The notes below the pieces were generated by a model. It saw nothing but the letters and a program-made list of their open reading frames with translations. It was not told the DNA's origin and did no database searches. Below are positions 873-3,238 of a stretch of 24,512 nt of DNA, one piece after another (the first letter of the stretch is position 1; every line of letters begins with the position of its first letter). A program made the translations under genes and the position numbers. Source of the stretch: a virus; the UHGV virus genome UHGV-0105321. One strand, given 5' to 3'.

Positions 873-1169
873 TTATACCTCTGAATCAATATTAATTTGG
901 TGACGGGCGATGGTTTCAGCCATGTAGCGGATGTGTTCTGCCATGCGTTCCTGAAAATCGACATCGTCATCAAATGCACGGGAAATAGCTTTTTTGCTGG
1001 CCCCGTGACGTTGCAGATTATCGATGCATAGCGATTCAAACAGGTGTTGGGGCAGACCTTTTTCCAGGTCGTCTGCCAGCTCAGCTTCAGTTTCTTCACG
1101 GGCAATTTGCTGGTAGTGTCGTGCCCATGACTGCTCTTCAATGCGATCGGGGATAAGCCAGGCATTCAT
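873..1169 (-). CDS. gam: Gam, RecBCD inhibitor, 98 aa short form
   Basis: Translation [60 protein letters not shown]... closely matches lambda Gam; start ATG 1167..1169 overlaps the upstream gene stop (ATGA). Confidence 0.93.
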
Positions 1170-3238
1170 GATTTATCACCTCCGAAATTTTCAAGCCTGT
1201 TGGCAATCATGATGGCGATATCAGGGATTGCTGGCGCTGTGGCTATACATGCGGGGTTGGCGCACAAACCATAGACGGCGGCAATCACGAGCTGTCTTTT
1301 CCAGTCGAGAGTTACTGGCTCAGAATTGGCGTCATCGCCGGACGTATCACTGCCTGGCTCGTTCTGAACAACGGTTTCGCCCTCCTGAGCGGCATCAACA
1401 GAGTTTTCCTGAATGATCTTCTCCTCAGTTTGTGCTGAGTCTTCTCCATCAGCGGCGTCATTTTCTCCAAAAGTTTCTGTGTAAGTGCTATCGCCCATTA
1501 CCGCACTACAGTCAGGGCAGTTACCCCCGCCAGTCTGACCACAGACGCGGCAGTTTTTTTCCAGCTCCGGTTGCGCTACTGGCCCTGGCTGTTGCTCTTC
1601 TGACCCGTTTTGTTGCGTATCCGGGCTGTTTTGTCCCGCTTCTGGGGCAATTTGTTCCACTTTGGACTGATTCTGGTCCTCAGTGTCGCGAGTCTGGATC
1701 CCCTTCACCCACTTCGGATCAGCAGGGTTACTGATGCCTTCAACGAATTCTCCACGCGAGGCAGCCAGTAATTTGTCGGCATCGACTGGATTTTTTGGGG
1801 GGATGTTTTCCCTGGCTTTATTGAGTTCCTCCCTCAGTTCCTGGTATTTCGTTTCTACAGATGAGACATTTTCCAGTGATTGCGTGTCCTCATTATGTTT
1901 AACTGGAATTTCTTCCACTGATTCAGGCGCTGCCTGTTCATTAGCCATTGTGTCCGATGCTTGTTGCTTTTCTTCATCGCCATGTTTTCCTTCTGCTGTT
2001 CCGCGCTGCGGCATCGGTGCTGATGAGCGACCGCAGGCAATTTCCACGATTTCCGGATCCGGGTTAGCGTGATCGGTTTCGGTCAACACTTTGTTGAGAT
2101 ATTCAGTCACGCGTGCCGGGATGGCCTCAATGCCGATTGGTGCTTCTTTCACGGAAGCCACCACAATGGCGCGGGAATAATCCAGCCCACCGGGCATGGC
2201 GATAAATTTGTCGCGAAAAACAGAAAAGGGCGGCTTATTCTCTGACACGATTTCTTCAACGCGTTTTGCGTGTGCTGGGTGCAGGTTATAAATATCCACA
2301 TCCATTGAACGGGCCAGAACGCCGGTGGCTACATCTCGTGCGAGTGATGTCTTATCATGTTTGAATCCTTCACCACGATCGGTAAGATTTCCGCCGCCAG
2401 CGTTAGCACCGGAAGGCGTACGGGTAATGCCTGAAACATAATTTCCGTTCTGCCATTCTTTTGTCAGCAGGCCCTGATCAAGGTAGTCAGTTTTCATCCA
2501 GGTGGAAATGAACTTGTCGAATTCAGCCGGGCTGATGCGATGATTTGCAGAGTGGGGGAATGCTTTCCCTACAGATTCAGCCAGGCGACTAAGGTGATAG
2601 TTCGTCAGTTTATCCAGTTCATGATGTGCGGCGCGCACAGCAGTAAGCAGGCTCTGAAGGTAACTGTCCTCTGTGTCCATCTCCATACGGATCACGTTAT
2701 TGCGTTGTTCTGGTGTGGCGTGATGCCGGTATTTTCCATCTTCATCCTTGCTGAAGAAGAAGAGGTGAAGGAAGCGATGAGTAAGGCTCAGAGTGGCGAC
2801 GGGAATTTCACACTCAGAACAGTCATCGTCGCTGTCCGGGGATTCGCTTTTCTCCACATCATCCGGAATAGTTCCGTCCGGGTCATCGTTGTCATCGCCA
2901 GCAGTTGTGGCATCTTCACCGTTGATGTTGTCATTGAAGGATATAGCCATCATGGTGATGCCATCTTCCCCGCCTTTTTCATAGCGGTTGCAGAATTCAG
3001 TATCAAACACGCCTTCCGGTGGAAGGTCATTCACGACGGGGAAATTTACGCGAACGGGTTTTTTGAAATCATCCTCGTCGTAGCCTGCATCGTCCATGGC
3101 TGCAATGCAGCGGGAAACTGCGACAGAAAGTTTTCTGGCCTCGGTCCAGAAAAAACCGCCTTTGATGCCAAGGCGTTTTCTGACTTTATCGTTTTTTGCT
3201 TCGCAGTGTAGTGCAAAAGTCTGTTTATCAGCGCTCAT
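1166..3238 (-). CDS. Large acidic hypothetical protein (690 aa) with a C4 zinc ribbon ([16 protein letters not shown]) and a second CxxC pair (CSECE); function unknown
   Basis: Uninterrupted 690-codon ORF; ATG 3236..3238 preceded by AGAGG; stop overlaps the gam start (translational coupling); long Asp/Glu-rich low-complexity stretches flank a more ordered central region. No family recognised by eye. Confidence 0.7.

What the first reader, a model, noticed from the sequence alone, without database searches (positions are those of the whole stretch)
1166..3238. 690-aa acidic zinc-ribbon protein translationally coupled to gam in the anti-defense hot spot
Immediately upstream of gam, with its stop overlapping the gam start, is a very large ORF for this part of a lambdoid genome, where lambda has the tiny kil/cIII-type genes. 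It has long Asp/Glu-rich tracts, one classical C-x2-C-x8-C-x2-C zinc ribbon and a second CxxC pair. The pL operon around gam is where lambdoid phages keep host-takeover and anti-defense genes (Gam, Ral, Abc-type); the acidic stretches could indicate a DNA mimic. I could not assign it to a known family.
Basis: partly seen in the sequence, partly recalled or inferred. Interest (0 to 1): 0.7.

Follow-up and report, generated by a model that had tools for sequence, protein, structure and literature searches.

The report
Nuclease-less RecE relative beside gam
The large acidic gene upstream of gam is a relative of the prophage recombination exonuclease RecE that keeps RecE's long non-catalytic front part but carries a short conserved helical tail instead of the nuclease domain. 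This type has been noticed before, is mislabelled "exonuclease VIII" in databases, and has no known function.

Summary
The 690-aa ORF is real. It lies on the minus strand at 1166-3238, has pI 4.6 and net charge -57, and its stop overlaps the gam start as ATGA. It is not an orphan. Residues 58-600 align with residues 50-555 of Rac prophage RecE (54% identity, about 90% in two core blocks), and the four-Cys zinc ribbon is included in that alignment. The PD-(D/E)XK nuclease domain of RecE is absent. In its place is a 45-residue helical hairpin with the motif QQL..AA..G.CANPA. The tail is not junk: dN/dS is 0.07-0.12, and it is found at the C-terminus of 25-45%-identical proteins (Pfam YdfE_N/YdfE_C) in Enterobacter, Citrobacter, Salmonella and Klebsiella prophages. 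Those proteins occupy the same slot, some with no recombinase gene nearby. The same front module also occurs fused to PD-(D/E)XK, DnaQ-like or coiled-coil C-termini. More than 100 E. coli/Shigella variants keep a 680-700 aa frame, always in the order kilR, 128-aa ORF, this gene, gam, bet, exo. A 2025 paper mentions such "RecE-2" proteins and says their role is unknown. No fold or sequence match supports a DNA mimic. The best guess, at low confidence, is a non-catalytic scaffold for DNA-end processing. The identity is solid; the mechanism is inferred.

The parts
1166..3238 (-). Whole ORF: 690 aa, a nuclease-less RecE-family protein ('RecE-2'/YdfE-like)
3041..3223 (-). aa 6-66, small N-terminal alpha/beta subdomain
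   Evidence: AF2 block-mean pLDDT about 55-79; the first 57 aa differ between variants
2648..3076 (-). aa 55-197, match to Pfam PF06630 Exonuc_VIII (the N-terminal region of RecE)
   Evidence: E=5.7e-11, 43 bits against a cut-off of 25
2813..2977 (-). aa 88-142, acidic tract 1, predicted disordered
   Evidence: 30-residue windows reach net -11; pLDDT <50; few aligned codons and near-zero dS in this tract
2765..2821 (-). aa 140-158, C140xxC143...H154xxxH158, a possible C2H2-like metal site. It is invariant in the E. coli clade and absent from K-12 RecE.
   Evidence: sequence and alignment only; metal binding not tested
2468..2812 (-). aa 143-257, helical domain
   Evidence: AF2 pLDDT 59-85; dN/dS 0.18
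2390..2467 (-). aa 258-283, Gly-rich loop [13 protein letters not shown], conserved across clades but predicted unstructured
2006..2389 (-). aa 284-411, the most conserved helical core (MDxDIY, PGxLDYSRA..K.AP, DHANPDP..V.IACGR)
   Evidence: about 90% identical to K-12 RecE; dN/dS 0.10-0.12; pLDDT mostly 70-90; conserved in the distant clade; present in 37 phage records
1856..2005 (-). aa 412-461, acidic linker 2, disordered
   Evidence: dN/dS 0.7-0.95; pLDDT <50
1706..1855 (-). aa 462-511, conserved helices (KYQELREEL... [26 protein letters not shown])
   Evidence: dN/dS about 0.1; about 90% identical to RecE
1508..1552 (-). aa 563-577, zinc ribbon C-x2-C-x7-C-x2-C, shared with RecE
   Evidence: the four Cys are invariant in A1/A2; it aligns with RecE ACNACGQTGGDNCPDC; dN/dS 0.18-0.25; the structure was not resolved by AF2
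1313..1468 (-). aa 591-642, acidic linker 3, hypervariable
   Evidence: dN/dS about 0.6 with saturated dS; the sequence differs between variants
1169..1312 (-). aa 643-690, conserved C-terminal helical hairpin ('CANPA tail') that takes the place of the RecE nuclease domain
   Evidence: dN/dS 0.07-0.12 at dS up to 1.6; the same motif sits at the C-terminus of distant homologues; AF2 predicts two helices with block-mean pLDDT 64-82
1166..1183 (-). ATGA stop/start overlap with gam, and a GGAGG Shine-Dalgarno sequence for gam inside the ORF
873..1169 (-). gam, short 98-aa form. Lambda-type DNA homology begins only 21 nt inside the gene.
82..867 (-). bet (lambda Red beta type)
1..85 (-). 5' end of the lambda-type exo gene, which runs off the window
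   Evidence: inferred from the gene order in the closest relatives
3346..3732 (-). 128-aa ORF directly upstream. It is a constant neighbour in the E. coli clade, has no family hit, and has a C-terminal CDCPEC motif.
3816..4037 (-). kil (KilR type)

Best explanation
Identity (shown). The gene encodes a nuclease-less member of the RecE family. It keeps the whole non-catalytic N-terminal region of RecE, about 600 residues: the PF06630 region, a helical domain, a conserved Gly loop, a very conserved helical core, a second helical block, a four-Cys zinc ribbon, and three acidic disordered linkers. It lacks the PD-(D/E)XK exonuclease domain and ends in a conserved 45-residue helical hairpin. That architecture, front module plus 'CANPA' tail, is an established family in enterobacterial Rac/Qin-like prophages (Pfam YdfE_N/YdfE_C; 'RecE-2' in Genome Res 2025). 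In this E. coli lineage it is fixed as the first gene of a block that reads this gene, gam, bet, exo. The block belongs to the early-left operon, and the gene's stop overlaps the gam start.

Mechanism (inferred). The protein has no catalytic domain of its own. It probably acts as a scaffold or accessory factor in phage DNA-end processing and recombination. The front module is a carrier unit that evolution has joined to different C-terminal effectors: a 5'-3' PD-(D/E)XK nuclease in RecE, a DnaQ-like 3'-5' nuclease, a coiled coil, or this hairpin. In this version the hairpin would supply self-association or docking to a partner working in trans. In this phage the front module would then give lambda-type Exo/Bet the activity it gives RecE in cis, which is stimulation of recombination between two linear DNA ends. 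The acidic linkers would act as flexible, DNA-repelling spacers.

I put the identity at about 0.95 and this mechanism at about 0.3.
For: Homology to RecE 50-555 is strong: E=7e-180, with the core and zinc ribbon conserved. It is also supported by PF06630, PHROG 607 profile positions 1-618 of 883 and NCBIfam exoVIII model 1-598 of 877.

The nuclease domain is absent. There is no PDB sequence hit, although RecE 606-866 has a solved structure. The precomputed Pfam list shows only PF06630, while full-length relatives carry PF06630 plus PF12684.

Domain replacement is clean. Variant P0119 follows the RecE linker up to the nuclease boundary and then switches to the tail. The 1049-aa RecE of E. coli PEC240 is nearly identical over about aa 58-520 and continues into a nuclease, followed by recT.

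The gene is under purifying selection. dN/dS is 0.10-0.12 in the core, 0.18-0.25 in the zinc ribbon and 0.07-0.12 in the tail, against 0.55-0.95 in the acidic linkers.

The tail is ancient. It is found in about 24 of the 149 listed 50%-identity cluster representatives and in Enterobacter, Citrobacter, Salmonella, Klebsiella and Kluyvera proteins, always 2-11 residues from the C-terminus.

The same front module carries alternative C-termini: about 20 PD-(D/E)XK, 12 DnaQ-like and 7 coiled-coil.

The Rec-module position is constant.

[quoted passage not shown] 'RecE-2' proteins that lack a nuclease domain are reported with roles unknown (PMC12315714).
Against: No experiment addresses this protein. 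Distant tail-bearing relatives sit in prophages with no exo, bet, recT or gam nearby. The ancestral function therefore cannot depend on a phage recombinase and may be aimed at the host. AF2 gave only partial confidence (mean pLDDT 56), and no fold match gives a functional clue. Nothing shows that the RecE N-region works in trans. The tail's partner or oligomeric state could not be tested here. The window's prophage may be defective, because no lysis or terminase genes were recognised.
Confidence: 0.5

Rival explanations
1. It is a host-directed, autonomous factor for anti-nuclease, anti-defence or host takeover functions. The conserved core, the tail or both bind a host protein such as RecBCD, another nuclease, SSB or a defence sensor. 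The polyanionic disordered tracts act as a DNA-like decoy.
For: It lies in the early-left operon beside kil, gam and N. Strong net negative charge is a family-wide trait: the median is -42 (range -59 to -32) in the distant clade and -58 in the E. coli clade, although the tract sequences are not conserved. Tail-bearing relatives occur in prophages that have no phage recombinase, so the function is independent of Red/RecET. The gene is optional among gam-bearing phages, present in 6 of 192 records, as accessory counter-defence genes often are.
Against: There is no sequence or fold similarity to any known anti-defence protein or DNA mimic. The acidic tracts are predicted disordered and nearly neutral in evolution, whereas Ocr, ArdA and Gam are rigid folded mimics. 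The same module is covalently fused to nucleases in many relatives, which fits DNA processing better than inhibition. It also coexists with Gam, so an anti-RecBCD role would be redundant.
Confidence: 0.25
2. It is an adaptor that recruits a nuclease in trans. The CANPA hairpin would be the functional equivalent of the fused nuclease domains, docking a separate exonuclease onto the front module. Here that could be lambda-type Exo. In prophages without a Rec module it could be a host enzyme such as RecJ, ExoI or RecBCD. This is a sharper sub-case of the best explanation.
For: C-terminal modules alternate on one front module: PD-(D/E)XK, DnaQ-like or tail. The tail is strongly conserved and hydrophobic, and is predicted as an exposed two-helix hairpin that should need a partner. 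The tail-bearing form is found both with and without a phage nuclease.
Against: This rests on architecture alone. A coiled-coil C-terminus also occurs, which points to oligomerisation rather than nuclease docking. The tail profile shows no similarity to the Red beta C-terminal domain that binds lambda Exo or to any PDB chain.
Confidence: 0.15
3. It is a decayed or truncated recE remnant, a pseudogene fusion with no function of its own that is carried along with gam-bet-exo.
For: The nuclease domain and recT are missing, and the gene is highly mosaic. The window's prophage may be defective. ydfE in K-12 is a true pseudogene.
Against: The reading frame is intact at 680-700 aa in more than 110 distinct variants, some down to 78% identity. 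dN/dS is 0.07-0.25 in every folded segment, including the tail, at dS up to 1.6. The tail is an ancient conserved module rather than read-through sequence. The gene is present in the phage records PhiR5_2 and Shigella 75/02 Stx.
Confidence: 0.03

Closest known systems
RecE (exodeoxyribonuclease VIII) of the E. coli Rac prophage (b1350, 866 aa)
   Same: Residues 58-601 align with RecE 50-555 at 54% identity, and about 90% in blocks 245-410 and 460-590. The alignment includes the four-Cys zinc ribbon and acidic linkers. The gene sits in the same slot of the early-left operon, downstream of kilR.
   Different: It lacks the C-terminal PD-(D/E)XK nuclease domain (RecE about 564/606-866) and has a 45-aa helical tail instead. 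Its neighbours are gam-bet-exo, not recT. The first 57 residues are unrelated to those of RecE.
'RecE-2' proteins of lambdoid Rec modules (Genome Res 2025, PMC12315714)
   Same: They are described as relatives of Rac/Gifsy-1 RecE that lack a nuclease domain, are encoded in early-left operons, and have unknown roles. This ORF fits that description.
   Different: The paper gives no analysis, and the phage list in its supplement was not available. Whether this exact lineage is among the 'RecE-2' proteins could not be checked. The paper calls them 'distantly related', whereas this one is closely related to RecE in its core.
YdfE family (Pfam PF27430 YdfE_N + PF27432 YdfE_C; ydfE pseudogene of the K-12 Qin prophage)
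   Same: Enterobacter, Citrobacter, Salmonella and Klebsiella members (590-660 aa) share the helical domain, Gly loop, core and CANPA tail with the window protein (BLASTP E=2e-26 over aa 147-684). They occupy the same position as the last large gene before xis/int, and a small ORF overlaps their 3' end. They are also strongly acidic.
   Different: Overall identity is only about 25%. The RecE-type zinc ribbon was not found in them. They have no adjacent gam/bet/exo. The precomputed Pfam list for the window protein shows PF06630 but neither YdfE model. K-12 YdfE itself is not detectably similar to the window protein by BLASTP, only to the Enterobacter intermediates.
Prophage exonucleases with a DnaQ-like (DEDDh) C-terminus on a RecE-like front module (annotated '3'-5' exonuclease' or 'exonuclease' in E. 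coli prophages)
   Same: They share parts of the front module, for example the first 289 nt or nt 1450-1745 at about 82% DNA identity in hundreds of E. coli genomes. Twelve cluster representatives have this architecture. DnaQ-like nucleases in lambdoid Rec modules are noted in PMC12315714.
   Different: They carry a catalytic 3'-5' exonuclease domain where this protein has the tail.
Lambda Gam, P22 Abc2, and the DNA mimics Ocr/ArdA
   Same: They are early-operon phage proteins. They are acidic and are involved with host nucleases.
   Different: No sequence or fold similarity was found. Those proteins are small and folded, whereas the acidity here sits in disordered, fast-evolving linkers.

Membership tests
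RecE / exodeoxyribonuclease VIII (NCBIfam NF007259 equivalog) | C-terminal PD-(D/E)XK 5'-3' exonuclease domain (Pfam PF12684; RecE about 606-866, solved structure) | tested here: not met
   There is no PF12684 hit. There is no PDB sequence hit at E<=1. The alignment to RecE ends at residue 555. The precomputed Pfam list shows only PF06630, while full-length relatives have PF06630 plus PF12684.
RecE / exodeoxyribonuclease VIII (NCBIfam NF007259 equivalog) | Whole-protein score above the curated equivalog cut-off | tested here: not met
   The score is 739 bits against a cut-off of 1269, and only model positions 1-598 of 877 are matched.
RecE / exodeoxyribonuclease VIII | N-terminal Exonuc_VIII region (Pfam PF06630) | tested here: met
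   E=5.7e-11, 43.1 bits against a cut-off of 25, aa 55-197.
RecE / exodeoxyribonuclease VIII | Cognate annealing partner RecT encoded immediately downstream | tested here: not met
   Downstream are gam and then a 261-aa bet that matches Pfam PF03837 and is named Bet in the closest records. Full-length relatives have recT.
RecE / exodeoxyribonuclease VIII | Mg-dependent 5'-3' dsDNA exonuclease activity | not testable with these tools
   This needs a biochemical assay. Activity is not expected, because the catalytic domain is absent.
Nuclease-less RecE relatives ('RecE-2', PMC12315714) | Homology to Rac/Gifsy-1 RecE | tested here: met
Nuclease-less RecE relatives ('RecE-2', PMC12315714) | No nuclease domain by fold prediction | tested here: met
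Nuclease-less RecE relatives ('RecE-2', PMC12315714) | Encoded in the early-left operon or Rec module of a lambdoid phage | tested here: met
   The order is N ... kilR, 128-aa ORF, this gene, gam, bet, exo, int.
YdfE family (Pfam PF27430 YdfE_N, PF27432 YdfE_C) | Significant match to the two Pfam models | tested here: inconclusive
   The precomputed Pfam list for the identical protein P0003 shows only PF06630. The local Pfam copy lacks both models: members that carry them return nothing. A direct scan was therefore impossible.
YdfE family (Pfam PF27430 YdfE_N, PF27432 YdfE_C) | Pairwise or profile homology to proteins that carry both domains, including the C-terminal motif | tested here: met
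   BLASTP against P0287 gives E=2e-26 over aa 147-684. The tail alignment has no internal gaps and AA..G.CANP is invariant. Motifs are conserved across clades. Tail-only scores are 22-29 bits and always C-terminal.
DNA-mimic anti-restriction / anti-nuclease proteins (Ocr, ArdA, Gam type) | A folded, rigid surface array of carboxylates that imitates B-DNA, or homology to a known mimic | tested here: not met
   The acidic tracts have pLDDT <50 and no secondary structure and have dN/dS of 0.55-0.95. No homology or fold match was found. A disordered polyanion decoy is not excluded.
Zinc ribbon (four-Cys knuckle) | Two CxxC pairs, conserved, separated by a short loop | tested here: met
   C563xxC566-x7-C574xxC577 is invariant in alignments A1 and A2 and is shared with RecE. 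Metal binding and fold were not tested, because AF2 confidence is low there.

The most novel reading that the evidence does not exclude
The RecE front module may be a free-standing factor that holds DNA ends together or hands them on, and that works in trans. In this natural phage it would equip lambda Red (Exo/Bet/Gam) with the linear-linear recombination capacity so far seen only with full-length RecE. The conserved CANPA hairpin would be a previously unrecognised docking or oligomerisation element that replaces a covalently fused nuclease, perhaps by recruiting a separate phage or host exonuclease. If so, the long-unexplained N-terminal two thirds of RecE would gain a defined function. The protein could then be added to Red recombineering for direct cloning.
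Probability: 0.2. Interest if true: 0.65.

Novelty: new member of a known kind. Interest (0 to 1): 0.4.

Why it matters
The N-terminal roughly 600 residues of RecE have had no assigned function for decades. They are known only to boost linear-linear recombination, the basis of RecET direct cloning. This gene is that region occurring naturally on its own, under purifying selection and placed next to lambda Red. It is therefore a clean handle for asking what the module does, and whether it works in trans. The analysis also shows three further things. The front module is a swappable carrier for at least four kinds of C-terminus. The short tail is an old, conserved element that links the RecE and YdfE families. 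Hundreds of database entries named 'exodeoxyribonuclease VIII' cannot be exonucleases. It is not, on present evidence, a new anti-defence system.

Tried and rejected
1. AF2 on a shallow alignment of 21 close homologues gave mean pLDDT 33 and was unusable. The deeper alignment of 58 sequences gave pLDDT 56 and only domain-level information.
3. Sequence and profile searches of the PDB with the protein, the family alignment A4 and the tail alignment A5 found nothing.
4. PADLOC gave no hit for this protein. Of three upstream ORFs tested, two had none and the third (4672-5052) had one weak JetB match at E=0.014.
5. I asked whether the tail comes from a stand-alone small protein or from the lambda gamL leader. 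tblastn of the tail found only the same six phage records. The word-indexed protein search returned only fragments of the same gene. Lambda-type DNA homology starts 21 nt inside gam, so the tail is not lambda-derived.
6. I asked whether the tail resembles the Red beta C-terminal domain, which binds lambda Exo. hhalign gave a probability of 0.1%.
7. K-12 YdfE against the window protein by BLASTP showed no similarity. The link holds only through Enterobacter intermediates.
8. Literature searches found no functional work on YdfE or on the RecE N-terminus. Only statements that the function is unknown were found. Fu et al. 2012 is not held in the library.
9. I considered a transmembrane reading of the tail and rejected it by a hand calculation, not a tool run. 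The highest 19-residue Kyte-Doolittle mean is about 1.5 in this variant, and the distant homologues are less hydrophobic (sequences).
10. I looked by eye for a beta-clamp-binding motif in the tail. QLVIAA/QLTIAA does not fit QL[SD]LF or QLxLxL and lies in a predicted helix, so I did not pursue it.
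Full report
OBSERVATION. The window has an ATG-initiated ORF of 690 codons on the minus strand at 1166..3238. Its TGA overlaps the ATG of a 98-aa gam gene (873..1169; PF06064, E=5e-65) in the sequence ATGA. A GGAGG lies 9 nt upstream of the gam ATG, inside the ORF. bet follows at 82..867. In the closest relatives a lambda-type exo comes next, and in the window it would run off the left end. The protein has pI 4.57, with 125 Asp+Glu against 68 Lys+Arg. The description is therefore correct apart from that spacing. 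kil is still present upstream at 3816-4037, so the ORF does not replace it.

IDENTITY. The protein is not an orphan.
- It matches Pfam PF06630 "Exonuc_VIII" above the gathering score (aa 55-197).
- It matches PHROG 607 with E=6.5e-258, but only profile positions 1-618 of 883.
- It matches the NCBIfam exodeoxyribonuclease VIII equivalog over model positions 1-598 of 877. The score of 739 bits is well below the cut-off of 1269.
- BLASTP against K-12 RecE, taken from the annotated Rac prophage, aligns aa 58-601 with RecE 50-555 at 54% identity (E=7e-180). Blocks 245-410 and 460-590 are about 90% identical, and the zinc ribbon is included (RecE ACNACGQTGGDNCPDC).

The alignment stops where the RecE nuclease domain begins. 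No PDB chain is hit by sequence, although the RecE nuclease domain has a solved structure. The precomputed Pfam list shows only PF06630, while full-length relatives show PF06630 plus PF12684. Public records call this gene "exodeoxyribonuclease VIII" or "RecE family exodeoxyribonuclease". For a protein without the catalytic domain, that name is misleading.

THE C-TERMINAL TAIL. The last 48 residues are [48 protein letters not shown]. They are conserved in every nuclease-less E. coli/Shigella variant, even where the acidic linker before them is unalignable. Variant P0119 follows the RecE-type linker right up to the nuclease-domain boundary (...DCSDETGE) and then switches to the tail. This is a clean domain replacement. 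The opposite case also exists. A 1049-aa RecE in E. coli PEC240 is nearly identical to the window protein over about aa 58-520, then continues into a PD-(D/E)XK domain and is followed by recT.

At first the tail looked lineage-specific. An exhaustive search of 1.84 billion cluster representatives changed that. It found 205 relatives at E<=0.001. Local domain mapping and inspection of C-termini then found the motif LTYxQQLTIAALQGLCANPAy...dDiPxMAxxLA at the C-terminus of about 20 further proteins. These are 490-730 aa long and only 25-45% identical.

SELECTION. I computed Nei-Gojobori dN/dS between the window gene and three nuclease-less variants, and against K-12 recE.

| Segment | dN/dS |
|---|---|
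| Core, aa 241-412 | 0.10-0.12 |
| aa 461-520 | about 0.1 |
| Zinc-ribbon block | 0.18-0.25 |
| Tail | 0.07-0.12 (dS up to 1.6) |
| Acidic linkers | 0.55-0.95 |

The gene is strongly mosaic, with stretches of zero divergence next to stretches with saturated dS. More than 110 distinct variants keep a length of 680-700 aa down to 78% identity. In the RefSeq complete-genome set, 83 of 5426 E. coli genomes carry at least 80% of the gene. A decayed fusion is excluded.

ARCHITECTURE. With a 58-sequence alignment, AF2 gave mean pLDDT 56.
- Moderate to confident segments (block-mean pLDDT mostly 60-90): a small alpha/beta unit (aa 6-66), a helical domain (143-257), a helical core (284-411, block-mean pLDDT mostly 70-90) and a two-helix C-terminal hairpin (645-685, block-mean pLDDT 64-82).
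- Predicted disordered: aa 88-142, the conserved Gly loop 258-283, 412-461 and 511-643. The last stretch includes the zinc ribbon, which the distant clade lacks.

A SWAPPABLE FRONT MODULE. Among the 149 listed representatives, the same front module ends in one of four ways:
- a PD-(D/E)XK nuclease, as in RecE proper (about 20);
- the CANPA tail (about 24);
- a DnaQ-like DEDDh exonuclease (12);
- a coiled-coil segment, ...YAKYLEGRLRRL... (7).

Fragments of the window gene at about 82% DNA identity are also found inside hundreds of E. coli prophage genes annotated "3'-5' exonuclease".

CONTEXT. In every E. coli-clade locus examined, the order is N, two unknown ORFs, kilR, (ydaE), a 128-130-aa unknown ORF, this gene, gam, bet, exo, DUF4222, int. 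This holds across different immunity regions and two integration sites. Homology to lambda-type gam DNA begins only 21 nt inside gam. Only 6 of 192 gam-bearing phage records have this gene upstream.

In the distant clade the gene is again the last large gene of the early-left operon of Rac/Qin-like prophages (Cro/YdaS, YdaT). Its 3' end overlaps a 77-100-aa ORF, and xis and int follow. No gam, bet, exo or recT lies nearby. ydfE of the K-12 Qin prophage is an IS2-truncated pseudogene of that clade.

LITERATURE. Two reviews state that the RecE N-terminal region has unknown or unclear function. [quoted passage not shown] A 2025 survey of lambdoid Rec modules mentions "RecE-2" proteins that are related to Rac/Gifsy-1 RecE and lack a nuclease domain by AF3. 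It says their roles are not known, and it reports DnaQ-like nucleases in Rec modules (PMC12315714). I found no functional work on YdfE.

INTERPRETATION. What is shown: this is a nuclease-less RecE-family protein with a conserved alternative C-terminus, under purifying selection, and a fixed member of a Rec module. What is inferred: it has no catalytic domain, and the same front module is repeatedly joined to DNA-end nucleases. It is therefore most likely a non-catalytic scaffold or accessory factor for DNA-end processing. The hairpin would provide self-association or docking in place of a fused nuclease. In this phage it could give lambda Exo/Bet, in trans, what the N-region gives RecE in cis.

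The main rival is an autonomous, host-directed role. It is supported by the relatives that lack any phage recombinase and by the family-wide conservation of strong negative charge (median net -42 to -58). It is weakened by the lack of any similarity to known counter-defence proteins or DNA mimics, and by the disorder and weak constraint of the acidic tracts. A pseudogene reading is essentially excluded.

VERDICT. The claim of no family is wrong. The anti-defence/DNA-mimic reading is unsupported but not excluded. The gene is a new member of a known but uncharacterised kind. Interest is moderate. It offers a natural, separable form of the unexplained two thirds of RecE, with a possible use in recombineering. 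It is not a new system.

Noticed in passing
window 3346-3732 (-): A 128-aa ORF lies directly upstream of the finding. It is a constant neighbour (128-130 aa) in every E. coli-clade locus and sits where racC sits in Rac. It has a C-terminal CDCPECQ motif and no Pfam or PADLOC hit. It could be a partner of the 690-aa protein.
   Followed up: partly
window 1508-1606 (-), aa 561-592, compared with L001 (PhiR5_2): Against phage PhiR5_2 the gene is almost identical everywhere except the zinc-ribbon block, where dS is about 1.2. This looks like a short patch exchange (gene conversion) inside the gene. The whole gene is a mosaic of such patches.
   Followed up: partly
window 1149-1169 (-): DNA homology to lambda-type gam begins only 21 nt inside gam. 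The first seven codons (MNAWLIP) and everything upstream belong to the RecE-like module. The mosaic joint therefore lies within the gam coding sequence.
   Followed up: yes
window 16000-20300: After the nin region (NinB at 14754-15164, RusA at 15663-16025) the next recognisable late gene is a P22-like portal at 20269-22281. No holin, endolysin or terminase was recognised in between, and there is no tRNA. Close relatives are Stx phages. This prophage may have lost its lysis and terminase region and be defective.
   Followed up: partly
window 13080-13839 (-): A Gp49-like protein (PF05973, RelE/HigB-type toxin family) and an overlapping HTH protein form a likely toxin-antitoxin pair in the nin region.
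   Followed up: no
window about 6200-24512 compared with L005: The ORF is 100% identical to that of E. coli G1/2. To the right of about 6.2 kb, however, the window's ORF pattern does not match that prophage, and the cI-like repressor sits at 8184-8891. Identity of the finding region does not extend to the whole prophage.
   Followed up: partly
L006 8033-8055 (variant P0119): In one lineage the gene overlaps gam by 23 nt instead of 4, and the protein ends ...TDDEYMPNF. This acidic-aromatic end resembles the SSB C-terminal tip. It may be a coincidence of the altered frame.
   Followed up: no
L008 7889-8131, L011 7845-8147, L012 6916-7152, L013 6806-7039: In the distant YdfE-like clade the gene's 3' end always overlaps a small 77-100-aa ORF (DUF4060, DUF7740 or unassigned), just as gam overlaps it here. 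Whether these small proteins are functional counterparts of Gam is unknown.
   Followed up: no
window 2540-3211 (+): A 223-codon antisense ORF lies inside the gene. It was not annotated or called as a gene in any related locus examined. It is most likely a by-product of the codon composition of the sense strand.
   Followed up: no
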